DNA of 52,321 nt from Acidobacteriota bacterium. Its GTDB lineage: Bacteria > Acidobacteriota > Blastocatellia > UBA7656. Position 1 is the first letter of the stretch, and each line of letters starts with the position of its first letter. This document shows, piece by piece, positions 436-40,804 of the stretch. The notes under the pieces were generated by a model that saw only the letters and a program-made list of their open reading frames with translations, was not told the origin of the DNA and ran no database searches. A program made the position numbers and the translations under genes. The stretch is from assembly GCA_040755335.1 (NCBI GenBank), contig JBFMAU010000002.1, positions 1 to 52,321 of the forward strand, given 5' to 3'.

Positions 436-504
436 TCAAAAAAAGTCTGGAGTCGAGAGTCTGGGGTCTGGAGTCAGAATAAAACCACTGACTACTGACC
501 ACTG
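436..504 (-). repeat. Composite intercistronic short-tandem-repeat element: (GGTCAGT)n - TTTTATTCTGACTCCA - (GACTCCA)n - T-run
   Basis: Minus-strand reading: TAG CAGTGGTCAGTAGTCAGTGG TTTTATTCTGACTCCAGACCCCAGACTCTCGACTCCAGACTTTTTTTGAAGAGTT ATG. It shares exact 16-nt and 22-nt blocks with the element at 32004-32097. Confidence 0.85.
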
Positions 505-23444: not shown

Positions 23445-23463
23445 CCTGAAGACATTCTCTTAT

Positions 23464-23495
23464 CGGGGGCGAGCCGCCCGCCCCCGAAAGTTTTT
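23464..23495 (+). terminator. Intrinsic terminator
   Basis: CGGGGGCG-agccgcc-CGCCCCCG followed by AAAGTTTTT. Confidence 0.7.
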
Positions 23496-23509
23496 CCCGC
23501 CATCACCGA

Positions 23510-23616
23510 GGAGTCTTTGATGTGGCACAATCCGTCGGATTGCGCGCGCCCCGAAAGCATGAAAATTCGGGGAACCCGCAAGCTCGCGAGCTTGCGCCAC
23601 CCGGAGGAGTCTGACC
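23510..23616 (+). promoter_or_regulatory. Conserved structured 5' leader motif, copy B
   Basis: GGAGTCTTTGATGTGGCACAATCCGTCGGATTGCGCGCGCCCCGAAAGCATGAAAATTCGGGGAACCCGCAAGCTCGCGAGCTTGCGCCACCCGGAGGAGTCTGACC ATG. Same architecture and spacing as copy A. Confidence 0.6.
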
Positions 23617-25239
23617 ATGCGAAAGATGAAAATATCTCTGTTGATCTTCGTCCTCTCGCTTGCGGCGCTTGCGCCTGCCTTTTCTCAACAATCGGCCAAC
23701 AGTCGCGCGGACGAGATGGTTCCCATGCGCGACGGAGTGAAACTCGCCACAACCATATACCTCCCGGAAGGCGAAGGCCCATGGCCCGTCGTTCTGGTTC
23801 GCACGCCTTATGGAAAAGATACTCAATCCGGGGGCCATGCCTCGTGGACGAAGCGAGGCTTTGCGCTAGTGACGCAGGATTGTCGCGGTCGCTTCAAATC
23901 GGAAGGCCAGTATCGCCCGTTCGTCGATGACCCGCAGGACGGATACGACACAGTTGAATGGATAGCCCGACAGAAATGGGCTAACGGCAAAGTCGGGATG
24001 TTCGGCGCGTCGGCTATGGGCATAACGTCGAACCTTGCGGCGATTGCCAACCCGCCGCATCTTGCGGCCATATTCGTGATGGTCGCCAGGTCGAGCATCT
24101 ACACCCAGTCGGCTTTCAACGGCGGAGTCTTTCGCAAAGAGCTTAACGAACTATGGCTCAAGCGCATGAATGCCGAAGATGTGCTGATGGAGACTTTTCG
24201 TCACAACGTCTACGACGGCTTTTATGATTCGAATGAGATGTCACTTCACTGGCAGAAAATTCATGTGCCGGCCTACAACTACGGCGGATGGTACGACATA
24301 TTTTCGCAGGGCAACGTCAGCAACTTCGCAGGGCTGCAAACGAAAGGAGGCAAGGGCGCAAGAGGCAATCAGAAACTTATGATGGGCCCTTGGGGTCACG
24401 GCGCTATCGAAGAAGTCAAATATCCGGCGAACTCTGTCGTGAATGTCAGCGAAGAAGCGATGCGATGGTTCGACTACTGGCTCAAGGGAGTGGATAACGG
24501 AATCATGCGCGAGCCTTCGGTGAAGTATTACGCGATGGGAGACGTGACCGATCCGAAAGCTCCCGGCAATGAATGGCGCACCGCCGCCTCGTGGCCCGTC
24601 CCGTCGCGCATCACGTCTTACTATCTTCAACCCTCCGGCGCGCTCAGTGACAAAGCCCCGACCATTCAGGAGAGCGCGGACTCTTACAAGTACGATCCGA
24701 AAAATCCGGTGCCGACGATTGGAGGAGCGAACCTCTTCATCAAGAAAGGCCCTATGGATCAGCGCGCCGCGGGAGAACGCAAGGATATTTTGAAGTACCT
24801 GACAGCGCCGCTCGATTCTGCGGTCGAAGTGACGGGACAGATCGAAGCTGAAATATGGGCCGAAAGCGACGCGCCCGACACTGATTTCATGGTCAAACTC
24901 GTGGATGTCTACCCGGACGGAACGGAGAGGCTGGTTCTGGACTCGGCCATTCGAGCGCGGTTTCGCGAAGGGTTCAACCGCGAGGTCTTCCTGGAGCGGG
25001 GCAAGGTCTACAAATTCAAGCTGGATTTGTGGTGTACGAGTCTCGTCTTCAATCGCGGCCATCGCATAGCGGTTCATGTGACAAGCTCGAACGATCCGCG
25101 CTATGACCCGAACCCGAACACAGGCCGACCGATGCGCGCGGATTCGGAAACGCGCGTGGCCACAAACGCGGTTCATCATGATAGAAAGCATCCGTCGAGG
25201 ATACTGCTGCCCGTCGCGCAAAACGGCAATCGTCCCTAA
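23617..25239 (+). CDS. CocE/NonD-family hydrolase (X-Pro dipeptidyl-peptidase S15-like), secreted
   Basis: Signal peptide, MVPMRDGVKLATTIYLPEGEGPWPVVLVRTPYGK, GASAMG nucleophile elbow, C-terminal beta-sandwich. Confidence 0.85.
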   Translation: MRKMKISLLIFVLSLAALAPAFSQQSANSRADEMVPMRDGVKLATTIYLPEGEGPWPVVLVRTPYGKDTQSGGHASWTKRGFALVTQDCRGRFKSEGQYRPFVDDPQDGYDTVEWIARQKWANGKVGMFGASAMGITSNLAAIANPPHLAAIFVMVARSSIYTQSAFNGGVFRKELNELWLKRMNAEDVLMETFRHNVYDGFYDSNEMSLHWQKIHVPAYNYGGWYDIFSQGNVSNFAGLQTKGGKGARGNQKLMMGPWGHGAIEEVKYPANSVVNVSEEAMRWFDYWLKGVDNGIMREPSVKYYAMGDVTDPKAPGNEWRTAASWPVPSRITSYYLQPSGALSDKAPTIQESADSYKYDPKNPVPTIGGANLFIKKGPMDQRAAGERKDILKYLTAPLDSAVEVTGQIEAEIWAESDAPDTDFMVKLVDVYPDGTERLVLDSAIRARFREGFNREVFLERGKVYKFKLDLWCTSLVFNRGHRIAVHVTSSNDPRYDPNPNTGRPMRADSETRVATNAVHHDRKHPSRILLPVAQNGNRP

Positions 25240-25258
25240 CATTGACCCTATCTGTCTG

Positions 25259-25334
25259 GTTCGCAGCGCAAGCTTTGACCGGAAGTCTTCAGCGAAAACT
25301 TCCGATTAAAGCCTGCGCTGCGAACTTTTCTTTC
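25259..25334 (+). terminator. Long compound hairpin plus T-rich tract after the CocE/NonD gene
   Basis: GTTCGCAGCGCA (25259-70) pairs perfectly with TGCGCTGCGAAC (25314-25). Inner stem GGAAGT/ACTTCC. Followed by TTTTCTTTCTC. Confidence 0.6.
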
Positions 25335-25557
25335 TCTCTTCTCCTGCGCACAAAAAATGTCTGCAAATCGAGGGATGCCTCCGCGAAGTTGCAAAGCGCG
25401 TCGGACTCTCTGTCGAGCCTTCCTCAAACAGTTGACTCATGCGCTGGCGGCAGTTATTTGCTCTGGGTCATGCGAGCGCGATGGCTTGTAGCGACTCTCT
25501 GCATCGCAGGCCGAGCGGTGATTATGATACTCTGTGGGTTCTACAGTGGAACCTTTC

Positions 25558-25640
25558 CGGCAGCGCAGACTGGCAGATGGCTGCCGTAAAGCATGAAAAT
25601 CGGGGACGAGCAGGCCCAAAGCCCGCCTCGTCGGAGGAGA
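25558..25640 (+). promoter_or_regulatory. Leader motif relative, copy C (hairpin - AAAGCATGAAAATCGGGGA - hairpin - GGAGGAG)
   Basis: CGGCAGC/GCTGCCG hairpin, a core identical to copy B apart from a 1-nt gap over 18 nt, then an imperfect GACGAGCAGGC...GCCCGCCTCGTC hairpin and the SD. Confidence 0.5.
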
Positions 25641-25658
25641 CATCAATTGGCGACTCGC

Positions 25659-26915
25659 ATGATTAAAATCCTGCCCCTGTGTCTGGTATTTCTGTTCGCG
25701 CCATCCGCCCTGAGAGCGCAGACCTCATCGCCCGAAAGCGGGGAGGTGGAGACGCTTCGCAAAAAAATAGAAGCTCAGGAGGCGCAGATAAAACTGCTGC
25801 GCGAGATGCTCGACCGTCAACAGAGCATGCTCGAAGCCATACAGCAAAAGCTCGCTCAACCGGTCGCGTCGGATCAGAATAAATCCTCTCATACAAACTC
25901 TTCCGAGAGCGCAAAGGCTGCGACTCAGACGACTGAAAGCGTGGAAGCGGGCGCGGGCAAAATAAGATTCAACGGGCTGGCGCAGGTATGGTTTGCGTCG
26001 GGCAACGAAGGATTCCGTGACACCTTTCGTTTGCGTCGCGCGCAGTTGCGATTCAGCGGCGAACTCAATCCTAAACTCAAATGGACGGTGATGCTCGATG
26101 CTGCCAAGGCGCTTTCAGCAAACGACTCCTTCGAGGGGGGCGCATTGAGCGACGTGAAGATCGATCAATCCTCGCGAATACTTCAGGAAGCCTTCCTCAC
26201 GCTCGATTACATTCCGAGAGTTCATCTCGACGCGGGCCAGTTCAAAGTGCCTCTCTCTCTGGAACTGCTGCAACAGGCTTCGGCTCTCGACACAATTGAG
26301 CGCGCGCTGTTCATCTCAGACCGCTCGCGCGGAGGACTGGGAGTCGCTCGCGACATCGGCCTCGCGATGCGCGGTCGCCTGCACCGTCAGGTAGATTATC
26401 AACTCGGCCTTTTCAACTCCAGCGGCGAGCATCAAAACGACTCTGACCGTAACGATCAAAAAGCTCTGATCGGAAGAGTTGCTTTCCGCCCGCCTTTCAT
26501 CAAAGGTTTGCAGGTGGGAGCCTCCGGCGCGTGGGGAGGCGGAGAGCGGCCCGACCGCGTGCGACGCGACCGCGCAGGCGGCGAGGTGCTGTTTGATCGC
26601 AACGGCTTCAAATTCAAATCCGAACTGATGGCGATCACCGACGGCGACACGCATCGCCTCGGTTATTACGCTCACGTCGGCTATCGCATAACTCCGAGGC
26701 TTGAGCCTGTGTTCCGCTTCGATTCCTTCGATCCGAACACCGGTCTCGAAACCGGTCAGGCGAATGTGACCGAGCGCGATTACGTCGCAGGTCTCAACTA
26801 TTACATCAACGAAAACAAACTGAAGCTCCAGATGAACTACCTTCGCAAAACTTTCGAAAACGGATTGCTCCCTTCTCGCAATCTGGTTCTTGTGAATCTG
26901 CAAACCTCCTGGTGA
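25659..26915 (+). CDS. Phosphate-selective porin O/P-like outer-membrane protein with N-terminal coiled coil
   Basis: Signal MIKILPLCLVFLFAPSALRAQ, coiled coil EVETLRKKIEAQEAQIKLL, beta-barrel pattern ending ...LVNLQTSW. An in-frame ATG at 25593 belongs to the leader motif and is an alternative start. Confidence 0.7.
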   Translation: MIKILPLCLVFLFAPSALRAQTSSPESGEVETLRKKIEAQEAQIKLLREMLDRQQSMLEAIQQKLAQPVASDQNKSSHTNSSESAKAATQTTESVEAGAGKIRFNGLAQVWFASGNEGFRDTFRLRRAQLRFSGELNPKLKWTVMLDAAKALSANDSFEGGALSDVKIDQSSRILQEAFLTLDYIPRVHLDAGQFKVPLSLELLQQASALDTIERALFISDRSRGGLGVARDIGLAMRGRLHRQVDYQLGLFNSSGEHQNDSDRNDQKALIGRVAFRPPFIKGLQVGASGAWGGGERPDRVRRDRAGGEVLFDRNGFKFKSELMAITDGDTHRLGYYAHVGYRITPRLEPVFRFDSFDPNTGLETGQANVTERDYVAGLNYYINENKLKLQMNYLRKTFENGLLPSRNLVLVNLQTSW

Positions 26916-27782
26916 ATGATGAAAAGAAAACCAGCGACCGCATTAGCTCTCGTCGCGCTTGTCGCATCTCTGCTTGCGGCAGGCTGCGGCAAATCGACGA
27001 AGCCTCTCACTTTGAGATTGAGCATGATCCCCAATACCGATCCGGGAAGGATCGTGCGCGAAAGTCAGCCTCTCATCTCCTACCTCGAACGCGAAACGGG
27101 AGCGAAGATCGAACTGACCGTCCCGACCAACTACGCCGCGGTGGTCGAAGCTATAGCCAACGATCAGGTCGACATAGCTTACTTCGGCGGATTCACTTAC
27201 GTTCAGGCGTCCGCTCGCGCAGGAGTGCGCCCGCTCGTTCAGCGCGAACGCGATCAGAATTTTCACTCGCTGTTCATCACGCAGGCGGATTCTACGATCA
27301 ACAGCCTCGCGGATTTGAAGGGCCGCACCTTCGCTTTCGGCGATGTCAATTCGACATCGGGCCATCTGATGCCTGAATACTTCATGCGACAAGCGAACCT
27401 CGACAAAGAAGTGATCGAGAAAGCCACATACATGGGCAGCCACGACGGGACGGCGCTCGCTGTGGCGAATAAAAAAGTGGACGCGGGCGCGCTGGATGAA
27501 GCGATCTATCAGCGGATGACCGCAGAAGGCAAGCTTGACTCAGCCCGTGTTCGCGTGTTTTATACTACTCCGCCGTTTTTCGATTACGTATGGGCCGCGC
27601 GGCGGGGATTAGATGAGAAATTGAGCGAGGCATTTTCAAACGCCTTTCTCAAACTCGGCCCTGAAAACCCGGAGCATAAACAATTGTTGGAATTTCTCAG
27701 CGCGACGAAATACGTTCGCGCCGAGGACAGCGATTATGACAAACTGAGACAGGCGGCTCGCGACGCAGGATTGATGAAGTAG
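26916..27782 (+). CDS. phnD: Phosphonate/phosphite ABC transporter substrate-binding lipoprotein
   Basis: Lipobox LLAAGC, then PhnD-like FGDVNSTSGHLMP and IAYFGGFTY. Confidence 0.85.
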   Translation: MMKRKPATALALVALVASLLAAGCGKSTKPLTLRLSMIPNTDPGRIVRESQPLISYLERETGAKIELTVPTNYAAVVEAIANDQVDIAYFGGFTYVQASARAGVRPLVQRERDQNFHSLFITQADSTINSLADLKGRTFAFGDVNSTSGHLMPEYFMRQANLDKEVIEKATYMGSHDGTALAVANKKVDAGALDEAIYQRMTAEGKLDSARVRVFYTTPPFFDYVWAARRGLDEKLSEAFSNAFLKLGPENPEHKQLLEFLSATKYVRAEDSDYDKLRQAARDAGLMK

Positions 27783-27830
27783 ATGTCGGAGAGGGATGTC
27801 ACATCCGGTCTCTGACGCCTGACATCGCTG

Positions 27831-28643
27831 ATGATTTATTCGCTCAAAGAAGTCGCCAAGAAATACTCCACGCGCAACGGATCGATCCATTCCCTCGACG
27901 GCGTGACGTTCGATGTTCGCCGCGGAGAGCGAGTCGCGCTCATAGGCCCTTCGGGCGCGGGCAAGACGACGCTCTTTCGCCTGCTCAACGCGACGCTTCG
28001 CCCCACGAGCGGAGAGCTTCGATTCGACGGCGCTGATGTGGGAGCGATGACGGCGCGCTCGCTTCGCGCCATGCGCCGACGCATAGGCACGATCTATCAA
28101 CAGCATCACCTCGTCCCTTCGCTCACCGCGCTCGAAAACACGCTCTGCGGCAAACTCGGTCAGTGGTCTCTCCTCCACACTCTTCGAAACATCATCCGAC
28201 CCGCGGCGGCGGAAGTCGAACAGGCAATGGCCGCGTTAGAATCGGTCGGACTTGCAGACAAACGCCTAGCTCGCGCAGACGAGCTTTCAGGCGGACAACA
28301 ACAGCGACTCGCCATAGCCCGCGTGCTGATGCAAAACCCCGATGTCATACTTGCCGACGAGCCTTTCGCTTCGCTCGACCCCGCGCTGACGGAAAGCATC
28401 GCCTCGCTGCTCCTCTCACTCGTAGATGGAGGAAAGCGGACGCTGGTCGTCACGCTTCACGATGTAGAGATGGCGATGTGGTATTTCCCGCGCATAGTCG
28501 CCCTGCGTGAGGGACGCATAGCTTTCGACCGCCCTTCGACTGAAGTTAATCGCGACGAGATGGACGCGCTCTACGCGGGCAACTCGAACTTAGTCGATGA
28601 GCAGAGGAGCAGTATAAAACGTGAGCGACATTGCGCGCGCTGA
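27831..28643 (+). CDS. phnC: Phosphonate ABC transporter ATP-binding protein
   Basis: Walker A GPSGAGKTT, signature LSGGQQQRLAIARVL, Walker B ILADEP. Confidence 0.9.
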   Translation: MIYSLKEVAKKYSTRNGSIHSLDGVTFDVRRGERVALIGPSGAGKTTLFRLLNATLRPTSGELRFDGADVGAMTARSLRAMRRRIGTIYQQHHLVPSLTALENTLCGKLGQWSLLHTLRNIIRPAAAEVEQAMAALESVGLADKRLARADELSGGQQQRLAIARVLMQNPDVILADEPFASLDPALTESIASLLLSLVDGGKRTLVVTLHDVEMAMWYFPRIVALREGRIAFDRPSTEVNRDEMDALYAGNSNLVDEQRSSIKRERHCAR

Positions 28644-30354
28644 TTACACGGATCGATTGAATCTCAGACGCGCGACGATTGCAGCGGCGCTCGTCGCTTT
28701 GATCGTTTTTTCATGGCGCATAGCTGAGGTTCGCCCCTCCGCTCTCTTCGCATCAGACGCCATCTCTGCGGTGATAGATTTCCTCCGAGGGCTTTTCCCT
28801 CCTGATCTGTCGGCGGATTTTCTTGGAGTAGTTTTCGTGGCCGCAGGGCGAACCGTCTCGATAGCAATAGCGGGAACTCTGCTTTCGATCCTGATCGGAT
28901 TGCCGTTAGGAGCGGTCGCCGCTTCGACGCTTTTCCGGCGCGGTATTCTCCTTGCGGGCGAGCGGCGAGGCGCGTGGACGTTTCTGCTTGTGGGAGTGAG
29001 TCGGGCGGCTCGCGCGCTGCTGGGATTTCTGCGAGCGGTTCCCGATCTGATGTGGGGATTGTTGTTCGTCGTGGCCGTGGGACTAGGATCGCTCGCGGGC
29101 GCGCTGGCTCTTGCAGTAAGCTATGCGGGAGTGCTGGGCCGCGTCTATGCAGACGTGTTCGACAGCGTTGACGGGCGCCCTGTCGAAGCATTGCATGCGA
29201 CGGGCGCGACGCGCTCACAGGTTTTCCTTCGCGCCGTCTGGCCTCAGTCCAGACCGACGATCATCGCTTACACGCTTTATTCATTCGAGTGCTGCATGCG
29301 CGCGGCTTCGGTTCTCGGATTCATAGGCGCGGGAGGCATAGGATACGAGATAAGCCTTTCGATGCGGCTCTACAGATACGATCAGGTGTTGACGCTGATA
29401 ATCGCTTTCATACTGCTGCTCACGGCTACCGACGCATTCAGTCGTTACCTGCGACGGAGGTTTCGCGCCAACGCTCCGCAGGGGACGCTTGCGCACGAAC
29501 GATTCAACGGGCTTGGGCTGATAACCGGAATCCCTCTCGAACGGGTGATGAACATAAGCATAGCCGCCATTGCAATCGCGGCGGTGACGGCGAGTTTTTA
29601 CGCAAGCGGATTTTTCGACGGCTCTCTGATGGATGCATCTTTGCTCAGTCGCATCAGTCGTTTCGTCGGGGCGATGATGCCGCCCGAACTGAGCGCATCT
29701 TTTTTGCGATCACTCATCGAGCCGCTTTTTCAAACCATAGCGATTTCCGTCATGGGGACGCTCATCGGAATGATTACAGGCGCGCTGCTGGCTCTGCCCG
29801 CGACAGCGACATTGATATTCGTAGAAGAAGACGAAGCGGGAAAGCGATCCCGGTTAGAGCGAGCGGCGCGGAGGATGACATACACGCTTGCGCGAACGGT
29901 GTTGAGTCTTCTTCGTTCGATACCTGAGCTTGTGTGGGTATTGATGTGCATCATAGCCGTGGGTCTCGGCCCATTTGCGGGAGCCATTGCGATAGGGCTT
30001 CACACGGGCGGCGTGCTGGGGAAGCTTTATGCGGAGACGCTCGAAGAAGTTCCGGAGAATCCTCTCGAAGCGTTGCGTTCGACGGGCGCGCGAAGGATGC
30101 AGATACTCGCGTGGGGCATCTGGCCGCAGGCGAGACCTATGCTCGTAAGCTACACGGTGTTGAGGTGGGAGACGAATTTGAGAGTATCGACTGTTTTGGG
30201 ACTTGTGGGCGGCGGCGGACTGGGGCAGGCGATTTACAACAACATTCAGCTTGGGTTTTACACGAAGGTGGCGACTTTAATACTCGCGGTTTACGCGCTC
30301 GTTGTGACGACCGATTGGATAGGCGACCGCGTGCGAGAGCGGCCCGCATCGTAA
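28621..30354 (+). CDS. phnE: Phosphonate ABC transporter permease, tandem-fused double PhnE
   Basis: Two PhnE-like halves, each with EAL.(A/S)TGA....(W)PQ..P and LG.(I/V)G.GG(I/L)G motifs. The GTG start overlaps the end of phnC. Confidence 0.85.
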   Translation: MSDIARADYTDRLNLRRATIAAALVALIVFSWRIAEVRPSALFASDAISAVIDFLRGLFPPDLSADFLGVVFVAAGRTVSIAIAGTLLSILIGLPLGAVAASTLFRRGILLAGERRGAWTFLLVGVSRAARALLGFLRAVPDLMWGLLFVVAVGLGSLAGALALAVSYAGVLGRVYADVFDSVDGRPVEALHATGATRSQVFLRAVWPQSRPTIIAYTLYSFECCMRAASVLGFIGAGGIGYEISLSMRLYRYDQVLTLIIAFILLLTATDAFSRYLRRRFRANAPQGTLAHERFNGLGLITGIPLERVMNISIAAIAIAAVTASFYASGFFDGSLMDASLLSRISRFVGAMMPPELSASFLRSLIEPLFQTIAISVMGTLIGMITGALLALPATATLIFVEEDEAGKRSRLERAARRMTYTLARTVLSLLRSIPELVWVLMCIIAVGLGPFAGAIAIGLHTGGVLGKLYAETLEEVPENPLEALRSTGARRMQILAWGIWPQARPMLVSYTVLRWETNLRVSTVLGLVGGGGLGQAIYNNIQLGFYTKVATLILAVYALVVTTDWIGDRVRERPAS

Positions 30355-30419
30355 GCCATCGGCTTGTTTGATAGAATCATCGCCATCGCAGTTAAAAATT
30401 TTGATGAGGTGTCCGTGCC

Positions 30420-32003
30420 ATGCTGGAAACAAGTGATCAGGCTCCTGCGTTTTCTCTACCACAACTTGATGGAAACACGATACGGCTCGGCGAAGGCAAA
30501 CCGCGTCTCGTCGTTTTTTTGGAAACCGATTGCCCGACCTGTCGATTGACTATTCCTTATCTCAATCGCCTCTCTTCGATACTCGGAGAAAATTCAGATG
30601 CTGTCATAGGCATATCGCAGGACGGCGAGCGGCAAACCAGAGAACTCATCGAGCAGATGCAAATTTCTTTTCCCGTAGTCACGGACAGCGATTTGAAAGT
30701 CTCGCGCGAGTATGATCCTGTGGCAGTGCCTACGCTCTTCCTCATCGATGCAAACGGAAAAATCATTCGAACCCAAACCGCTTTCGACAAGGAAGATTTA
30801 AACGACATCGCTCGCCTGATGTGCGAAGCCTTCAAACTCAGTCCCGTCATCATCGCCGACCCTTACGACGGCGCTCCGCAATCAAAGCCCGGTTGCATGT
30901 CTCGTCATCTTGAAACTGCGACCGAAGACGACGTAGCGGAAGCGATCAACCTTTACGCAAAACGCGGCAGCCGCGCCTCGCGCATCGAGCTTGACGACGC
31001 GACCGACGTTTACGAATACCTGATGCAGTACGATCCGCTGCCCGTAGTGCCTCCCACCACGGAGCGCGTAGAAAGAATGCTTGCGGCGACAACGCTTCCG
31101 GCGGATGAAATCATCGCCCGCGTTCCGCCAAACTATGGCGCGGCTACGGTCGAAAAAATAGCCGCAAACGCCGTGATGGCCGGATGCAAGCCGGAGATGA
31201 TGAGCGTGTTGATACCGCTCATTCGCGCCGCATGCGATGAAAGATTCAACCTTCACGGGGTTCAGGCGACGACTCACTTCGCCGCGCCTCTCATAATCGT
31301 CAATGGCCCTGTCCGTCATCGATTGGGTTTTACCTGTGCGGGCAATGTGATGAGCAACGTCTCGCGAGCGAACTCTACGCTCGGTCGCGCATTGCAACTC
31401 ATCTTGACGAATATCGGCGGCGCGCGTCCGGGCGAGATAGATATGTCGACGCTCGGCAATCCCGGAAAATTTTCTTACTGCATAGCCGAAAACGAAGAAG
31501 CAAGTCCGTGGGAGCCGCTTCAGGTCGAGATGGGACTCTTGAGAGATCAAAGCGCGGTCACACTTTTTGCCGCAGAGCCTCCGCGCGGCGTGAGCGAGCA
31601 TAACGCCCGTCGCGGCGAAACCGTTCTCAAAGCGATCAGCCGCGCGCTTGCGACCTCGTGGACTTATCGCTCCTGTATAGGAATCGAAGCGATAGTCGTG
31701 CTTTGCCCTGAGCATGTGAAAACACTCGACAGCGACGGCTTCACCAAACAGTCGATAAGAGAGTGGCTCTTTCACAACACGGGCATTCCCAAAAAAGAAT
31801 ATACGGACGAAGGCGAGGGGACTCAGTACACGCAGTTTTACAAAGAGGCGGTGATCGCGGGCGAGCCATGTTATTTGAAATTCCCGCACCCATCAGCGAT
31901 AAAAATAGTCGTCGCGGGCGGGACAGCCGGAAAGTTTTCAGCCGTCATCAGCAGTTGGGCCGCAGGAGAACGCGGTAGCCAGATGGTCACTTATCCGGTT
32001 TAG
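30420..32003 (+). CDS. Fusion protein: N-terminal TlpA/peroxiredoxin-like thioredoxin-fold domain (CPTC) plus an unrecognised ~380-aa C-terminal domain
   Basis: APAFSLPQLDGNTIRL...VVFLETDCPTCRL...VPTLFLIDANGKI covers residues 1-~135. I match the remainder to no family. RBS GAGGTG. Confidence 0.8.
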   Translation: MLETSDQAPAFSLPQLDGNTIRLGEGKPRLVVFLETDCPTCRLTIPYLNRLSSILGENSDAVIGISQDGERQTRELIEQMQISFPVVTDSDLKVSREYDPVAVPTLFLIDANGKIIRTQTAFDKEDLNDIARLMCEAFKLSPVIIADPYDGAPQSKPGCMSRHLETATEDDVAEAINLYAKRGSRASRIELDDATDVYEYLMQYDPLPVVPPTTERVERMLAATTLPADEIIARVPPNYGAATVEKIAANAVMAGCKPEMMSVLIPLIRAACDERFNLHGVQATTHFAAPLIIVNGPVRHRLGFTCAGNVMSNVSRANSTLGRALQLILTNIGGARPGEIDMSTLGNPGKFSYCIAENEEASPWEPLQVEMGLLRDQSAVTLFAAEPPRGVSEHNARRGETVLKAISRALATSWTYRSCIGIEAIVVLCPEHVKTLDSDGFTKQSIREWLFHNTGIPKKEYTDEGEGTQYTQFYKEAVIAGEPCYLKFPHPSAIKIVVAGGTAGKFSAVISSWAAGERGSQMVTYPV

Positions 32004-32097
32004 TGGTCAGTGGCCAGTGGTCGGTGGTCAGTTGTTTTATTCTGACTCCAAACTTCTGGCTTCTGACTCCAGACTCCAGACTCTCGACTCCAGACTT
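32004..32097 (+). repeat. Composite intercistronic short-tandem-repeat element: (GGTCAGT)n - TTTTATTCTGACTCCA - (GACTCCA)n - T-run
   Basis: TGGTCAGTGGCCAGTGGTCGGTGGTCAGTTG TTTTATTCTGACTCCAAACTTCTGGCTTCTGACTCCAGACTCCAGACTCTCGACTCCAGACTTTT, then GAGGAG and the ATG. Confidence 0.85.
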
Positions 32098-32111
32098 TTG
32101 AGGAGAACATT

Positions 32112-32639
32112 ATGCCGATAAATTTGATCAATCCGTTTGACGAGACTCCGCGCTCGCACGTCGCGGCGGCCTCGCGACTGAGCGCGCTTGAAGGCAAGAC
32201 CGTCGCTCTGCTCGACATCAGCAAACCGGGCGGAAGCGTTTTTCTGAATCGCATCGAAGCGTTGCTCAAAGATCGCTTTCGAGTCCGCGAGGTCATTCGA
32301 GCGATGAAGCCGACCTTCACGAAGCCCGCGCCTGATGAGGTGATAGGAAAGATCGTCGCGGCAAAAGCCGATGCGGTGATAGAAGCTCTGGCCGATTGAG
32401 GGTCATGCACGACGTGCAGTTTGCACGACACGACCCGGTTTGAAAGCATGGGGATTCCTTCGGTCGCAATAGCCACAGAAGAATTTATGACGGCAGCCCG
32501 CGCTCAGGCCGCAGCATTGGGGCGAGCGGATTTCGACGCGGTTTACGTCGCGCATCCCATACAGGATCAGACCCGACAGGAAATAGAAGCCCGCGCTGAC
32601 GCGGTGATCGAAGAGATAGCCGCGCGGCTCACATCGTGA
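32112..32639 (+). CDS. UGSC-type (UxxCxxC) selenoprotein. An in-frame TGA at 32397-32399 is read as selenocysteine; 175 aa in total.
   Basis: Track ORFs 32112-32399 and 32421-32639 share one frame. Read-through gives ...AVIEALAD-U-GSCTTCSLHDTTRFESMGIPSVAIATEEF... A SECIS-like hairpin follows the TGA. The second ORF has only a TTG start and no RBS. Confidence 0.75.
32400..32436 (+). promoter_or_regulatory. Candidate bacterial SECIS element
   Basis: GGGUC(32400-04)/GACCC(32432-36) basal stem. CGUGCA(32413-18)/UGCACG(32422-27) apical stem with loop GUU. It starts directly after the UGA. Confidence 0.6.
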
Positions 32640-32682
32640 AGGTTGATGACTCGGTTCAGTGATATACAGTCAGAGTGTGTGA

Positions 32683-32711
32683 TTGTGCCGGACTTTACTC
32701 TGTGCTAGATT
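32683..32711 (+). promoter_or_regulatory. Candidate promoter of the DUF433/DUF5615 pair (TTGTGC-17 nt-TAGATT)
   Basis: Hexamers at 32683-88 and 32706-11. The spacer overlaps a CAGAGT...ACTCTG inverted repeat. Confidence 0.35.
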
Positions 32712-32732
32712 CGTTTTCGCAAGGAGCAAATC

Positions 32733-32987
32733 ATGAAGGCGCGCAAATCGGTAGAGCTTGGTCAATACATAATCGCCGACCCGCAGATTTGCCATGGCAA
32801 ACCCACCTTCAAAGGCACGCGCATCATGGTCAGAGACGTTCTCTACTTCGTGGCAAAGGGTTATGATTGGGATCGCATCTCGGCTGAATACGACGGACGC
32901 CTTAGCCATGAAGCTATTGCGGAGGCGATTGAGTTGGCTCGCAAGGCATTGATCGAAAAAACTGAGAAGCCGAAACGGGCAGCATGA
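32733..32987 (+). CDS. DUF433-family antitoxin-like protein
   Basis: ICHGKPTFKGTRIMVRDVLYFVAKGYDWDRISAEY..LSHEAIAEAIELA matches the DUF433 pattern. RBS AAGGAG. Confidence 0.8.
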   Translation: MKARKSVELGQYIIADPQICHGKPTFKGTRIMVRDVLYFVAKGYDWDRISAEYDGRLSHEAIAEAIELARKALIEKTEKPKRAA

Positions 32988-33370
32988 ACGTCCTTGATGA
33001 GAACATCATAGCGAGCCAGCGCAAACAACTTGAATCATGGAAGATTCACTTTCGACGGATCGGCGACGAGGTCGGTCATTTGGGAATGAAGGATATGGAT
33101 GAAATTATTCCGCTGCTTCACGCCCTGCACCGCCCGACATTTTTTACGATGGACGAAGACTTCTATCGCCCTCAACTCCTCCACGCCGGCTATTGTCTGG
33201 TCTATCTCGATGTGTACCCCGACGAAGCCGCTCAATATATTCGCCGCTTCCTGCGCTTCAAAGGATTTCGCACTCAGGCGCAACGAATGGGCAAAGTGAT
33301 TCGCCTTCGACACACTGAGATGGACTACAGACAGATTGGCATACAGAAAGAGATCGCAATTCACTGGTGA
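32984..33370 (+). CDS. DUF5615-like (PIN/Mut7-C-like) putative toxin
   Basis: MNVLDENI...IIPLLHALHRPTFFTMDEDF. ATGA start/stop overlap with the DUF433 gene. This is the usual DUF433 partner. Confidence 0.65.
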   Translation: MNVLDENIIASQRKQLESWKIHFRRIGDEVGHLGMKDMDEIIPLLHALHRPTFFTMDEDFYRPQLLHAGYCLVYLDVYPDEAAQYIRRFLRFKGFRTQAQRMGKVIRLRHTEMDYRQIGIQKEIAIHW

Positions 33371-33380
33371 TCTCGCGCGC

Positions 33381-35105
33381 TCAGTTTGCCGCAAGCTTTA
33401 CGCGAAGAGTTTCTACTACATCATCAATCGCCACGTCTTCCGATGCGCGGGTCGAGCGCGTGAACAATTCGACTTTGCCTTCCTTGATCTTCTTGCCGAC
33501 CGTTATCCGAAACGGCACGCCTATCAAATCTGCGTCGTTGAATTTCACCCCCGCTCGCTCGTCTCGATCATCGAGCAACGCTTCGATCCCTGCCGTTTCC
33601 ATCTCGCGGTAAAGCCGCTCTGCAACGTCGCTCATCGCCTGATCCTTGATGTTGACGGGAGTGATGATCGCATGAAAAGGCGCTATCGATGCGGGCCAGA
33701 TGATCCCCGCGTCGTCATTGTACAACTCGACTGCCGCAGCCATCAGTCGCTCGACTCCTATCCCATAGCTTCCCATCACTATCGGGGCTTCCGTCCCTTC
33801 GGCAGTCAACACTCGCGCGCCCATGCTCTCGGAATACTTCGTGCCTAGTTTGAATATGTGACCCACCTCTACCGCCTTGAACACGTCTATCACGCCGTCG
33901 CATTGCGGACATCCTTCGCCCGCGGCGACCGAACGAAGGCTCGCCCAGCGGTCTACTTTGATGTCGCGACCCATCGCGACTCCGCGCAGGTGGAAATCAT
34001 CCTTGTTCGCGCCCGTAGTCATGTTGCTGCGGCCTCGGAGGGATTCTTCGGCAATGATCAGCTTGATGTGACGATGCGTCTTCGAATCTATCCCCACGGC
34101 TCCGAGCGAGCCTGCCGAAGCGCCCAACGCCGAGCGTATCTCTTCCGGGTGCGCGGGACGCACTCTTATCGCGGCAGTCGCATCGATGAGTTTCGTTTCA
34201 TTGAGTTCGTGATCGCCTCGCATCAACACGAGCGCCAATTTGTCATCGAGCGAATAGACCAGAGTTTTTATCTGACGATCCGCCGCCGCGCCTCCGGGAA
34301 AAGCGGTAAGGTCTGAAATGGTGCGGACGCCGGGAGTCGGAAATTCTTCAGGAGCCGCAGGGCCTTCTTCGTCAGCGACGGCGGCGATGCGCGATGTGGC
34401 TTTTTCGACGTTTGCAGCGTAGCCGCATTTTTCGCACACGGCTATGAGGTCTTCGCCCGCTTCCGTTCTCACCATGAATTCCGTCGATTGGCTCCCGCCC
34501 ATCGCGCCCGAACTCGCTTCGACCGAAGTGTATTTCAAACCGCAGCGCGTGAATATGCGACAGTAAGCGTCGTACTGATCCTGAAAAGCTTTATCCAGCC
34601 CCGCGCGGTCTGTGTCGAACGAGTAAGCGTCTTTCATAGTAAACTCGCGCACGCGAAGCAGCCCCGATTTGGGCCGCGCCTCGTCGCGAAACTTGGTCTG
34701 AATCTGATACCACACCTGTGGAAGCTGACGATAAGAGTTGATCGCATTGCGCGAGATGATCGCGAATATCTCTTCGTGCGTCATACCCAGACACATATCC
34801 GCGCCTCGTCGGTCGCGCAGGCGAAACATGTTATCGCCCATCACTTCCCATCGGCCCGATTCTTTCCACGCCTCGCCGGGATGAATCGCGGGCAGATGGA
34901 ATTCCTGCGCGCCGATTCGATTCATCTCCTCGCGAATTATCTGCATGACTTTGAGCCTGACGCGCTGGGCGAGCGGCAGGATTGAATAAACGCCTGCGGT
35001 GAGTTGACGAATGAACCCGGCGCGAACGAGCAGCCGATGGCTTGCGACCTCGGCATCAGCCGGGTCTTCGCGCAACGTCGGGACGAACAGATTAGACCAT
35101 CTCAT
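33381..35105 (-). CDS. proS: Proline--tRNA ligase (bacterial type with editing insertion)
   Basis: [35 protein letters not shown]..., class II motifs, about 574 aa. ATG 35105 lies after AGGAGAA. Confidence 0.95.
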
Positions 35106-35178
35106 CAGCGATTCTCCTATGTCAGGAAACTTCAATGTAATGGAATCAGCAAAAGTAGCAAGCGAAAAAGTTGACTGT

Positions 35179-35190
35179 CAAGCATGCTTG
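35179..35190. promoter_or_regulatory. Perfect 12-bp palindrome CAAGCATGCTTG (candidate operator) in the proS-guaB divergent region
   Basis: Read directly from the sequence. Overlaps the putative -35 of the guaB promoter. Confidence 0.4.
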
Positions 35191-35217
35191 CAAACCGACG
35201 CAGCCCTTTGATAGCAT
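35188..35217 (+). promoter_or_regulatory. Candidate guaB promoter (TTGCAA-18 nt-TAGCAT)
   Basis: -35 at 35188-93, -10 at 35212-17, about 100 nt upstream of ATG 35318. Confidence 0.35.
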
Positions 35218-35308
35218 CCCGTGCTGGGGTCGAAAGAATCCAGCATCTTTCTTAAAAGCTCCACGAGGAGCTATGTGATTAACGCGCCCTCGCGCGCAAA
35301 GCAGTTGA

Positions 35309-38137
<2,829 letters not shown>

Positions 38138-40764: not shown

Positions 40765-40804
40765 ATTCTGACTTCAGACTCCAGACTCGCGACTCCAGAC
40801 TTTT
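40765..40804 (+). repeat. (GACTCCA)n leader repeat, copy 4
   Basis: ATTCTGACTTCAGACTCCAGACTCGCGACTCCAGACTTTT, then CTAAGGAG and ATG 40821. Confidence 0.8.

What the first reader, a model, noticed from the sequence alone, without database searches (positions are those of the whole stretch)
30420..32639. Two-gene redox module: thioredoxin-fold/unknown-domain fusion followed by the mini GrdB-like selenoprotein
The 527-aa protein has a TlpA/peroxiredoxin-like N-terminal domain (CPTC) with no signal peptide. It is fused to a ~380-aa domain that I cannot assign to any family. That domain has several conserved-looking Cys residues (AGCKPE, AACDERFNLHGVQATTH, FTCAGN, SYCIAE, LCPEHV). This protein is separated from the UxxCxxC selenoprotein only by a repeat element and a strong RBS, so the two genes are very likely co-transcribed. 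A thiol-disulfide domain, an unknown catalytic-size domain and a selenoprotein resembling the Sec region of glycine/proline-reductase B subunits together suggest an uncharacterised Sec-dependent reductase. The setting is a non-clostridial, apparently aerobic lineage (ACIII genes in the window). I see no GrdA, GrdC/D or PrdA genes nearby, so it is not a canonical Stickland reductase operon.
Basis: inference. Interest (0 to 1): 0.8.

Follow-up and report, generated by a model that had tools for sequence, protein, structure and literature searches.

The report
Selenoprotein UGSC with its obligate partner
The two genes form a real, strongly conserved pair found across bacteria and archaea: the known but function-less UGSC selenoprotein and a large unannotated enzyme-sized domain, here fused to a thioredoxin-like domain. 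This pairing most likely forms a selenium-dependent reductase, which makes the 20-year-old question of what UGSC does directly testable.

Summary
Gene 1 (30420-32003, 527 aa) has three parts:
- a cytoplasmic Redoxin/TlpA-like domain with CPTC;
- a flexible linker;
- a ~340-aa domain ("DOM") with no Pfam, NCBIfam or PDB relative.

Gene 2 (32112-32639) is a bona fide member of the known UGSC selenoprotein family. It has Sec-UGA at 32397-32399 and a conserved SECIS hairpin.

New here: DOM is a very large family, with 4711 clusters at 50% identity. It is almost always encoded next to UGSC:
- 73 of 80 acidobacterial loci;
- 76 of 80 loci from other bacterial phyla and from archaea.

DOM also occurs fused to UGSC in both orders, to thioredoxin-like domains and to thioredoxin-reductase-like flavoproteins.

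I read this as a two-component Sec-dependent reductase fed by a thiol relay: NAD(P)H, then TrxR-like protein, then the Trx-like CxxC with a conserved linker Cys159, then UGSC U96/C99, then DOM Cys256. The substrate is unknown. In other phyla the pair often sits in carboxylate/acyl-CoA catabolic clusters.

It is not a canonical glycine/proline reductase, and "peroxiredoxin/TlpA" annotations cover only a quarter of the protein. UGSC models as flavodoxin-like, not thioredoxin-like. The biochemistry remains inferred.

The parts
30420..32003 (+). Gene 1: 527-aa fusion protein (Trx-fold domain, Cys-bearing linker, DOM), including the stop codon
   Evidence: ORF. Homologues with the same architecture (71-89% identity) are named only 'TlpA family disulfide reductase' or 'peroxiredoxin'.
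30432..30809 (+). Cytoplasmic Redoxin/TlpA-like thioredoxin-fold domain (aa 5-130). The redox motif C38-P-T-C41 lies at 30531-30542.
   Evidence: Pfam PF08534 at 71 bits and PF00578 at 70 bits. CPTC is present in 104 of 120 homologues. There is no signal peptide.
30837..30971 (+). Flexible linker (aa ~140-184) carrying the strictly conserved P-G-C159 motif (TGC at 30894-30896)
   Evidence: pLDDT <50 over query residues 1-44. PGCx[SA][RK] is conserved in all Trx-fold+DOM fusions, including relatives at 34-45% identity.
30972..32000 (+). DOM: unannotated ~340-aa domain, the candidate catalytic subunit. Nearly universal Cys256 is at 31185-31187 (motif NAVMAGC-PE, at the N-terminus of a helix); Cys354 is at 31479-31481. 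Family-wide invariant residues are D205, R323 and E357, with near-invariant H286 and H432.
   Evidence: No family or PDB hit. The family has 4711 clusters at 50% identity. Conservation. AF2 model: pLDDT 83, pTM 0.83.
32004..32111 (+). Intergenic spacer: dispersed heptamer-repeat element that can form an imperfect hairpin, then RBS GAGGAG (32100-32105)
   Evidence: (dG -38 kcal/mol, z -1.4, not significant). The element is not conserved in relatives, whose spacers range from -1 to 1141 nt.
32112..32639 (+). Gene 2: UGSC-family selenoprotein (175 aa with Sec96), including the stop codon
   Evidence: NF041046 at 157 bits against a cutoff of 125, and PF24696 at E 8e-47. The model of a Cys homologue has pLDDT 93.5 and a flavodoxin-like fold.
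32397..32399 (+). Sec codon UGA (U96) of the U-G-S-C99-T-T-C102 motif
   Evidence: TGA at this position in 72 of 72 acidobacterial loci. In other phyla it is TGA in 62 cases and a Cys codon in 4.
32413..32427 (+). SECIS hairpin CGUGCA-GUU-UGCACG, starting 14 nt after the UGA
   Evidence: The 17-nt motif is invariant in 72 of 72 loci while flanking synonymous sites vary. There is a compensatory C:G to G:C change between clades (GUGCA/UGCAC versus GUGGA/UCCAC), and the apical GU is kept. The single-sequence fold alone is not significant.

Best explanation
The two genes encode a self-contained, two-component, selenocysteine-dependent thiol/selenol oxidoreductase.

DOM (aa ~185-527 of gene 1) is the substrate-handling catalytic subunit. 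Its nearly universal Cys256 sits at a helix N-terminus. The UGSC protein is its dedicated redox partner: Sec96 and Cys99 cycle between the selenol/thiol state and a selenenylsulfide.

Reducing equivalents arrive by a thiol relay. In this organism the relay is built into gene 1, as the cytoplasmic Trx-fold domain (C38xxC41) plus the conserved linker Cys159. In other lineages a thioredoxin-reductase-like flavoprotein is fused to DOM or encoded next to it.

By analogy with GrdB/PrdB, Sec most likely acts as the nucleophile or leaving group in the reductive step. That analogy rests on UGSC's weak resemblance to their Sec region and on the rarity of Cys variants. The oxidised Se-S centre would then be re-reduced.

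The substrate is unknown. In many phyla the pair lies in clusters for uptake and CoA-dependent degradation of carboxylic acids. In Acidobacteria and Methanobacterium it stands alone.

Shown: the gene pairing, the fusions, the Sec decoding signals and the conserved residues. Inferred: the direction of electron flow, which residues exchange with which, and the chemistry.
For: Pairing:
- 73 of 80 acidobacterial loci have UGSC next to DOM.
- 76 of 80 loci from other phyla do too, 74 of them within 1.5 kb on the same strand.
- The reverse look-ups from two UGSC proteins also find DOM adjacent.
- In Acidobacteria nothing else is conserved around the pair.

Rosetta-stone fusions: 11 full UGSC(Cys)-DOM fusions, 10 Sec-truncated UGSC-DOM fusions and 4 DOM-UGSC fusions among 150 representatives.

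Redox coupling:
- 26 of 120 homologues are DOM-TrxR fusions carrying CAVC.
- TrxR-like genes are adjacent in 12 of 80 loci and in L084/L167.
- Trx-fold+DOM fusions occur in several deeply divergent lineages, with conserved CxxC and PGC.

Sec usage:
- The Sec codon and a covarying SECIS are present.
- Sec forms greatly outnumber Cys forms: 62 to 4 here and 255 to 21 in GOS (PMC2398784).
- In PrdB a U-to-C change abolishes activity (PMC11229817).
- UGSC members hit GrdB/GrdF models weakly but consistently over the Sec region.

Context pointing to carboxylate/CoA metabolism: CoA-transferase III, ECH, ACAD, SDR, MmgE/PrpD, TctC/TRAP/DASS transporters and GntR-FCD regulators.
Against: - No biochemical data exist for any family member.
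- DOM has no detectable relative of known function, so 'catalytic subunit' is an inference from its size, invariant polar residues and fusions.
- I could not inspect model coordinates or predict the complex, so the proximity of U96/C99 to C256 is untested.
- C354 is dispensable in some members, and the third Cys of UxxCxxC is not conserved.
- The catabolic context is absent in Acidobacteria and methanogens, so the substrate class may differ or be more general.
- The UGSC-GrdB similarity is local and below curated cutoffs.
Confidence: 0.6

Rival explanations
1. Repair or antioxidant enzyme. DOM reduces an oxidised cellular component (a sulfoxide, hydroperoxide, or disulfide/persulfide). It would resemble PilB-type methionine sulfoxide reductases, which also carry an N-terminal TlpA-like domain, with UGSC acting as a fast Sec-based recycling partner.
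For: - The N-terminal domain is Redoxin/AhpC-TSA-like.
- The pair stands alone among housekeeping genes in Acidobacteria and Methanobacterium.
- Many prokaryotic selenoproteins are thiol-oxidoreductase-like (PMC13188914).
Against: - In most other phyla the pair lies inside catabolic clusters with transporters, CoA-transferases and beta-oxidation-type enzymes, and it is multiplied as paralogues in Dehalococcoidia. This is typical of substrate-diversified metabolic enzymes.
- No oxidative-stress genes are conserved nearby.
- The peroxiredoxin motif and Prx equivalog cutoffs are not met.
Confidence: 0.2
2. DOM is a non-redox enzyme, such as a hydro-lyase, isomerase or decarboxylase acting on carboxylates. 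Its catalytic Cys must be kept reduced or be activated, and UGSC/Trx/TrxR serve only as a dedicated activating or regulatory system.
For: - Family-wide invariant residues are D, R and E plus one Cys.
- There is a weak Foldseek resemblance to class I fumarate hydratase and to YjgF/chorismate-mutase-like modules.
- Neighbours include MmgE/PrpD and ECH.
Against: - A stoichiometric, near-obligatory and often fused Sec partner plus fused TrxR is a heavy investment for mere maintenance.
- hhalign against FumA gives 0.1% probability.
- The TM-score is only 0.24.
- Only one universal Cys is present, so an Fe-S hydro-lyase site is unlikely.
Confidence: 0.15
3. It is a divergent canonical Stickland glycine/sarcosine/betaine/D-proline reductase, with DOM as a cryptic GrdE/PrdA-like pyruvoyl proprotein.
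For: - The motif is UxxC(xxC), and UGSC shows weak similarity to the GrdB/F/H/PrdB Sec region.
- The organisation is two-subunit (Sec protein plus larger partner), as in PrdA/PrdB (PMC11229817).
Against: - There is no PF09338 hit in the window protein or in any of 51 DOM members, even at E<=10.
- The GrdB model score is 18 bits against a cutoff of 602.
- No GrdA, GrdC/D, PrdC or PrdH lies within about 5-7 kb or in related loci.
- The pair occurs in aerobes and methanogens.
Confidence: 0.03
4. The adjacency is fortuitous, and the protein is simply a TlpA-type disulfide reductase or peroxiredoxin as annotated in databases.
For: Source annotations read 'TlpA family protein disulfide reductase' or 'peroxiredoxin'.
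Against: - These names describe only aa 5-130.
- The pairing is conserved in about 150 of 160 loci across domains of life, and fusions exist.
- There is no signal peptide, so it is not a periplasmic TlpA/ResA.
Confidence: 0.01

Closest known systems
UGSC family (seleno)protein (NCBIfam NF041046, Pfam PF24696), the 'UGSC-containing protein' of Zhang and Gladyshev
   Same: Gene 2 is a full member. It scores above the curated cutoff, has the U-G-S-C motif and carries a SECIS. The literature lists the family as one of the most abundant aquatic selenoprotein families, with function unknown (PMC2398784, PMC9312934, PMC13188914).
   Different: Nothing differs for gene 2 itself. The papers I could search do not describe the obligate DOM partner or the Trx and TrxR fusions; the 2008 paper only mentions a 'UGSC/Unknown_1 fusion'. 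The 2008 suggestion of a Trx-like fold is not borne out, because the model is flavodoxin-like.
Substrate-specific component B of glycine/sarcosine/betaine reductase (GrdB/F/H with GrdE) and D-proline reductase (PrdB with PrdA)
   Same: A Sec protein with a UxxC motif works with a larger, separately encoded catalytic partner. The Sec region shows weak local sequence similarity. Sec is almost never replaced by Cys. Reducing power comes from a thioredoxin-type system.
   Different: UGSC is about 175 aa, against about 240 aa for PrdB (PMC11229817) and a 431-435-position GrdB model. It matches only ~50-70 residues of the GrdB models. The partner DOM has no similarity to the pyruvoyl proproteins (PF09338). 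There is no GrdA, GrdC/D, PrdC or PrdH. The pair is found in aerobes, methanogens and many phyla rather than in amino-acid-fermenting Firmicutes.
TlpA/ResA/DsbE-type thiol-disulfide oxidoreductases (Pfam Redoxin)
   Same: The N-terminal domain has the fold and a CxxC motif. The best structural relatives by sequence are ResA and Trx-family proteins.
   Different: It is cytoplasmic, with no signal peptide or anchor. It is fused to a linker Cys and a 340-aa domain, and it scores below every equivalog cutoff.
Enzymes with fused electron-donor modules, such as PilB (TlpA-like domain + MsrA + MsrB) and TrxR-Trx fusions (from general knowledge, not tested here)
   Same: The architectural logic is shared: a thiol-dependent reductase covalently linked to its own Trx-like or TrxR-like reductant.
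   Different: The catalytic domain is unrelated, and an additional Sec protein is interposed.

Membership tests
UGSC family (NF041046 / PF24696) | Whole-protein HMM score above the curated cutoff | tested here: met
   157.3 bits against a cutoff of 125. PF24696 scores 159.9 bits, E 8e-47.
UGSC family (NF041046 / PF24696) | U/C-G-S-C motif encoded by an in-frame UGA (or a Cys codon) | tested here: met
   EALAD-U-GSC, with TGA at 32397-32399. TGA is present in 72 of 72 loci and in 62 of 66 motif matches.
UGSC family (NF041046 / PF24696) | Bacterial SECIS hairpin downstream of the UGA | tested here: met
   An invariant 17-nt hairpin motif starts 14 nt after the UGA. It shows a compensatory C:G/G:C change between clades and a conserved apical GU.
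Glycine/sarcosine/betaine/D-proline reductase component B (GrdB/F/H, PrdB) | Full-length match to TIGR01917/TIGR01918 above the cutoff | tested here: not met
   18.4 bits against 602 and 14.1 against 65; only aa 75-126 align. The local hit is consistent, in 12 of 47 members.
Glycine/sarcosine/betaine/D-proline reductase component B (GrdB/F/H, PrdB) | Partner is a pyruvoyl proprotein (GrdE/PrdA, Pfam PF09338) | tested here: not met
   No PF09338 hit for gene 1 or for 51 DOM members at E<=10. A pyruvoyl group itself is not testable in silico.
Glycine/sarcosine/betaine/D-proline reductase component B (GrdB/F/H, PrdB) | Operon partners GrdA, GrdC/D (or PrdC/D/E/H) nearby | tested here: not met
   The ten neighbouring genes (22014-38137) are a hydrolase, a peptidase, a porin, an ABC transporter, DUF433, ProRS and IMPDH. 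No conserved extra gene appears in 81 acidobacterial loci. The rest of the window was not scanned.
TlpA/ResA/DsbE periplasmic thiol-disulfide oxidoreductases | Redoxin-fold domain with CxxC | tested here: met
   PF08534 at 71 bits against a cutoff of 26.6; C38PTC41.
TlpA/ResA/DsbE periplasmic thiol-disulfide oxidoreductases | Extracytoplasmic location (signal peptide or membrane anchor) and equivalog-level score | tested here: not met
   The domain starts at residue 5, and only 4 codons lie upstream before a stop. The ResA model scores 62 bits against a cutoff of 170, and the TlpA model 17 against 230.
Peroxiredoxin (database name of many homologues) | PxxxT/SxxC peroxidatic-Cys motif and a Prx equivalog score | tested here: not met
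   The sequence reads FLETDCPTC, which is T-x-C, i.e. a CxxC redoxin motif. The thiol peroxidase model scores 30 bits against 140, and PrxQ 22 against 260.
Class I (Fe-S) fumarate hydratase (best Foldseek hit for DOM) | Shared fold, profile similarity and three cluster-binding Cys | tested here: not met
   Foldseek E 9e-4 but TM 0.24 and rmsd 16 A. hhalign of the DOM profile against E. coli FumA gives 0.1% probability. Only one Cys is universal in DOM.
Thioredoxin fold (suggested for UGSC in PMC2398784) | Trx-like beta-alpha-beta-alpha-beta-beta-alpha topology | tested here: not met
   The AF2 model (pLDDT 93.5) has five parallel beta-alpha units. The best PDB matches are dipicolinate synthase B, flavodoxins and B12-binding domains, at TM 0.45-0.52.

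The most novel reading that the evidence does not exclude
UGSC+DOM is a previously undescribed, ancient and very widespread two-component selenoenzyme of Bacteria and Archaea. Its catalytic subunit has a fold not represented in the PDB. Selenocysteine acts as the catalytic nucleophile for reductive cleavage of a C-X bond in small carboxylates, which is Stickland-type chemistry. It operates outside fermentative Firmicutes, including in aerobes, and is powered by dedicated Trx/TrxR modules.
Probability: 0.3. Interest if true: 0.85.

Novelty: new variant of a known kind. Interest (0 to 1): 0.7.

Why it matters
UGSC has been listed since the mid-2000s as one of the most abundant prokaryotic selenoprotein families in aquatic metagenomes, and reviews up to 2026 still give it no function.

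UGSC has a near-obligatory partner domain with no family annotation (4711 clusters at 50% identity). That partner is repeatedly fused to UGSC, to Trx-like domains and to TrxR-like domains. Together these turn an orphan selenoprotein into a defined system with a testable electron path and named candidate catalytic residues.

The pair also occurs in cultured organisms that could be used for testing: Robertmurraya sp. 2P01SA, Parapusillimonas granuli LMG 24012, Streptomyces sp. RB5, Nocardioides pacificus and Methanobacterium.

The result also corrects widespread database names ('peroxiredoxin', 'TlpA family disulfide reductase') that describe only the first quarter of these proteins. If the Stickland-like chemistry holds, Sec-dependent reductive catabolism would extend to soil and water aerobes and to archaea.

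Tried and rejected
- Class I fumarate hydratase as a relative of DOM (best Foldseek hit). Rejected: TM 0.24, hhalign against E. coli FumA at 0.1% probability, and no three-Cys site.
- Permissive Pfam scan (E<=10) of 51 diverse DOM members. No family recurred.
- PDB sequence searches with the single sequence and with a profile. Only the Trx-fold part hit.
- BFVD fold search. Nothing below E 0.1.
- Checking whether 'Unknown_1' of PMC2398784 Fig. S1A is DOM. The panel is held only as an image, and motif searches in the truncated dataset were uninformative. The identity is plausible but unverified.
- Literature search for DOM motifs (DGLPVVPPT, NAVMAGC). No paper found.
- Single-sequence folding of the SECIS region and of the intergenic repeat. 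Neither was significant against shuffles. The SECIS was established only by comparative data.
- Promoter/terminator scan of 30200-32900. Counts were not above the shuffle expectation, so nothing can be said about transcription signals.
- A first neighbour-clustering pass with an overlap filter lost real genes to antisense ORFs in GC-rich loci. I replaced it with six-frame HMM scans.
- Complex prediction and residue-distance checks were not possible. Structure jobs are capped at two, and model coordinates are not exposed.
Full report
**1. What is in the sequence**

The + strand ORF 30420-32003 encodes 527 aa. Residues 5-130 are a Redoxin/AhpC-TSA thioredoxin-fold domain (Pfam E 1e-19 and 2e-19) with C38-P-T-C41. 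The best PDB sequence relatives are ResA and Trx-family proteins, and they cover only this part. The reading frame is open for only four codons upstream of the ATG, so the domain is cytoplasmic.

The remaining ~390 residues hit no Pfam or NCBIfam model and no PDB sequence, either alone or as a profile.

After a 108-nt spacer with a GAGGAG RBS, the ORF 32112-32639 reads through a TGA at 32397-32399 to give ...EALAD-U-GSCTTCSLHD.... This protein scores 157 bits on NCBIfam NF041046 'UGSC family (seleno)protein' (cutoff 125) and E 8e-47 on Pfam PF24696. The closest relative is a Chloracidobacterium MAG (90% identity), so the window comes from a Blastocatellia-type acidobacterium.

**2. The UGA is a genuine Sec codon**

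- All 72 related acidobacterial loci that could be aligned at the Sec position (of the 73 with a UGSC hit) have TGA at this position.
- In 80 loci from other phyla the same position is TGA in 62 motif matches and a Cys codon in 4, the latter in Methanobacterium and Parapusillimonas.
- Fourteen nucleotides after the UGA lies the hairpin CGUGCA-GUU-UGCACG (32413-32427).
- The surrounding 17-nt motif is invariant in 72 of 72 loci, while neighbouring synonymous sites vary.
- In other clades the stem reads CGUGGA-GUN-UCCACG. This is a compensatory C:G to G:C exchange that keeps the apical GU.
- That exchange also changes the protein (Cys102 to Trp).
- Folding the single sequence was not significant by itself. 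The comparative evidence is what establishes the SECIS.

**3. UGSC is a known family without a function**

The 'UGSC-containing protein' is listed among the most abundant selenoprotein families of the GOS metagenomes: 255 Sec forms against 21 Cys homologues, and more frequent in non-marine samples (PMC2398784). Reviews of 2022 and 2026 still list it, the latter among families whose functions remain 'largely uncharacterized' (PMC9312934, PMC13188914). The 2008 paper mentions a fusion of UGSC with a conserved domain called 'Unknown_1'. The figure is held only as an image, so I could not verify that Unknown_1 is the domain studied here.

An AlphaFold2 model of a Cys homologue at 50% identity is confident (pLDDT 93.5, pTM 0.87). 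It is a five-stranded parallel alpha/beta sandwich. Its best PDB matches are dipicolinate synthase B, flavodoxins and B12-binding domains (TM 0.45-0.52). This is a flavodoxin-like fold, not the thioredoxin fold suggested in 2008. The Sec sits between strand 3 and the following helix.

Similarity to GrdB/GrdF/GrdH/PrdB models is weak and restricted to ~50-70 residues around the Sec. It recurs in 12 of 47 family members (best E 3e-4), which accounts for most of the members that include the Sec/Cys region.

**4. The unassigned domain (DOM) is a very large family**

- A word-indexed search found more than 7000 clusters at 90% identity. The best 120 are all Redoxin+DOM fusions from Acidobacteriota, annotated only as 'TlpA family disulfide reductase' or 'peroxiredoxin'.
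- An exhaustive HMMER search of 1.84 billion 50%-identity representatives found 4711 clusters at E<=1e-3 and 1093 at E<=1e-30.
- Scanning 51 diverse members against Pfam at E<=10 gave no recurrent family.
- An AF2 model of residues 140-527 is confident from residue ~185 onward (pLDDT 83, pTM 0.83). The first 44 residues are disordered.
- Foldseek against the PDB gave no convincing match. The best hit is class I fumarate hydratase at E 9e-4 but TM 0.24 and rmsd 16 A. Non-significant hits follow to YjgF/RidA, cyanuric acid hydrolase, the tubulin/FtsZ C-domain, HypE and ThiL. From my own recollection of fold classification, not tested here, most of these share a chorismate-mutase-like beta-alpha-beta module.
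- hhalign of the DOM profile against E. coli FumA gives 0.1% probability, so I reject the fumarate hydratase lead.
- BFVD gave nothing.
- No AFDB library was available. I can therefore only say that there is no solved relative, not that the fold is new.

**5. Conserved residues of DOM**

The residues below come from alignments of 120 and 51 sequences and from all copies in 85 loci. Numbers are positions in the 527-aa protein.

| Conservation | Residues |
|---|---|
| Family-wide invariant | D205 (motif W-T-D-G-L-P-V-V-P-P-T), G255, R323, E357, G500 |
| Nearly invariant | C256 (N-A-V-M-A-G-C-x-P-E, at the N-terminus of a helix in the model), T285, H286, N318, N331, D341, K350, C354, W364, E386, E431, H432 |

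C256 is retained in all primary copies, apart from one 50%-identity representative (P0185) that has Ala. C354 is replaced by A, L, V, T or F in about ten of them.

Many loci in other phyla carry a second, divergent DOM copy directly downstream. It keeps C256, R323 and E357 but changes H286, E386 and H432.

**6. The pairing with UGSC is the central result**

- Among the 80 best acidobacterial loci, 73 contain UGSC. Three of the seven without it end at or within ~150 nt of DOM's stop, leaving no room for the downstream gene.
- In 71 of them UGSC lies downstream on the same strand. The gap has a median of 77 nt, is <=50 nt in 31 loci, and is an overlap of 1 nt in one locus.
- No other gene is conserved around the pair in this phylum.
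- With a profile of diverse stand-alone DOM proteins I fetched 80 loci from Alpha-, Beta-, Gamma- and Deltaproteobacteria, Dehalococcoidia/Chloroflexota, Methylomirabilota, Binatia, Acidimicrobiia, Dormibacterota, Bacillota (Robertmurraya sp. 2P01SA), Parapusillimonas granuli, Methanobacterium and Nitrosocosmicus.
- Six-frame HMM scans found UGSC on the same strand in 76 of these 80 loci, within 1.5 kb in 74 and usually within 200 nt. The gene order there is mostly UGSC then DOM.
- Starting from the UGSC side gave the same picture.

Among the 150 best 50%-identity representatives of DOM, the architectures are:

| Architecture | Count |
|---|---|
| Full UGSC(Cys)-DOM fusion | 11 |
| Begins with the post-UGA half of UGSC, then DOM (Sec forms cut by gene callers) | 10 |
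| DOM followed by the pre-UGA half of UGSC, ending ...GD | 4 |
| DOM-DOM tandem | 4 |
| Redoxin fold + DOM | about 14 |

This combination of near-universal synteny across two domains of life and fusions in both orders is as strong as comparative evidence for a physical and functional partnership gets.

**7. Evidence that the system is redox-driven**

- A search with a UGSC-DOM fusion returned 26 proteins (of 120) in which DOM is followed by a low-Mr thioredoxin-reductase-like flavoprotein with a CAVC motif.
- In other loci a separate TrxR-like gene is adjacent: L084, L167, and 12 of the 80 diverse loci.
- Trx-fold+DOM fusions occur well beyond the window's close relatives (34-46% identity to the window's DOM). 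In all of them the flexible linker carries a strictly conserved P-G-C-x-[SA]-[RK] motif, which is C159 in the window protein. The Trx motif is CxxC or, in some, CxxS/T.

This gives a plausible relay: NAD(P)H, then a TrxR-like protein, then Trx-fold CxxC with C159, then UGSC U96/C99, then DOM C256. No individual transfer step is shown.

**8. Clues to the substrate**

In Actinomycetota, Chloroflexota, Proteobacteria and Bacillota the pair lies in clusters with:
- CoA-transferase family III, acyl-CoA dehydrogenases, enoyl-CoA hydratase, SDRs and acyl-CoA synthetase;
- MmgE/PrpD and Ldh_2;
- TctC/TRAP/DASS carboxylate transporters;
- GntR-FCD, MarR or PrpR-type regulators.

Dehalococcoidia carry several paralogous pairs per locus. 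This points to small carboxylic acids.

In Acidobacteria and in Methanobacterium, however, the pair stands among unrelated or housekeeping genes. The substrate here is therefore open, and the family is probably diversified.

**9. Mechanism and rivals**

I favour a two-component Sec-dependent reductase (confidence 0.6). DOM binds and activates the substrate, and UGSC supplies a Sec/Cys redox centre recycled by the thiol relay. Cys variants of UGSC are extremely rare. By analogy with PrdB, where U151C is inactive (PMC11229817), Sec probably takes part directly in the chemical step rather than only in disulfide exchange.

| Rival | Confidence | Main point |
|---|---|---|
| Repair or antioxidant reductase in the manner of PilB | 0.2 | Stand-alone context in Acidobacteria and Methanobacterium fits; catabolic context elsewhere does not |
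| Non-redox enzyme whose Cys is merely kept reduced | 0.15 | A near-obligatory, often fused Sec partner plus fused TrxR is heavy for maintenance |
| Canonical Stickland reductase | 0.03 | Fails the membership tests: no PF09338 partner, no GrdA/C/D, GrdB model 18 bits against 602 |
| Chance adjacency | 0.01 | Refuted |

**10. Novelty and limits**

Gene 2 belongs to a known, named family. The system has three features I did not find in any paper I could search: UGSC with an obligatory, unannotated partner domain; the alternative Trx and TrxR fusions; and the conserved linker Cys. The one exception is the passing 'Unknown_1' remark of 2008.

I rate it a new variant of a known kind: Sec-dependent, thioredoxin-system-linked reductases of the GrdB/PrdB type.

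Everything about activity is inferred. I could not predict the complex, inspect model coordinates, search AFDB, or compare DOM with GrdE/PrdA beyond HMMER sensitivity.

Noticed in passing
window 457-477 (-), 32004-32099 (+), 40768-40788 (+): A dispersed intergenic heptamer-repeat element (CTGACTC/CAGACTC units, with GGTCAGT-type units forming the opposite arm) occurs at three sites: 7 matches against 0.43 expected. At 32004-32099 it can form a long imperfect G.U-rich hairpin (dG -38 kcal/mol, z -1.4). It is not conserved between the two genes in relatives.
   Followed up: partly
window 35318-38137 (+): A 939-aa IMP dehydrogenase interrupted by an intein with a LAGLIDADG homing-endonuclease domain (Pfam IMPDH split, Intein_splicing, LAGLIDADG_3).
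   Followed up: no
window 32733-33370 (+): Immediately downstream of the UGSC gene lie a DUF433 protein (84 aa) and an overlapping 128-aa ORF with no Pfam hit. This looks like a small toxin-antitoxin-like pair unrelated to the module.
   Followed up: no
window 25593-30354 (+): Upstream on the same strand lie a phosphate-selective porin and a phosphonate-type ABC transporter (binding protein, ATPase, double-length permease). This neighbourhood is shared by only 8 of 81 related loci, so it is not part of the module.
   Followed up: partly
L086-L088, L090, L092, L098, L108, L115, L127, L140; L081 7169-8335: In many non-acidobacterial loci a second, divergent DOM paralogue directly follows the first. 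It keeps the AGC cysteine, Arg and Glu but has H286->G, E386->S and H432->L/M (window numbering). This suggests a heteromeric DOM/DOM' enzyme. Tandem DOM-DOM proteins of ~710-740 aa also exist (P0142, P0150, P0226, P0231).
   Followed up: partly
L002, L013, L016, L019, L020, L026, L029, L038: Several public MAGs labelled 'uncultured Clostridia/Heliomicrobium/Heliobacteriaceae' (binchicken co-assemblies) carry loci 69-89% identical to the acidobacterial module. Their taxonomic labels look wrong.
   Followed up: no
window 32406-32429; L086-L165 UGSC genes: The SECIS stem overlaps codons 100-106 of UGSC. RNA pairing therefore dictates protein residues: Cys102/Leu104 in Acidobacteria against Trp/Val-Ile in most other phyla. 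The apparent 'UxxCxxC' motif in this window is partly an RNA-structure by-product.
   Followed up: yes
P0390-P0509; P0145, P0129 etc.: Public gene calls split almost all Sec-type UGSC genes at the UGA. This gives ~96-aa N-terminal fragments, or it fuses the post-UGA half to the following DOM gene. As a result, database architectures of this family are systematically distorted.
   Followed up: partly
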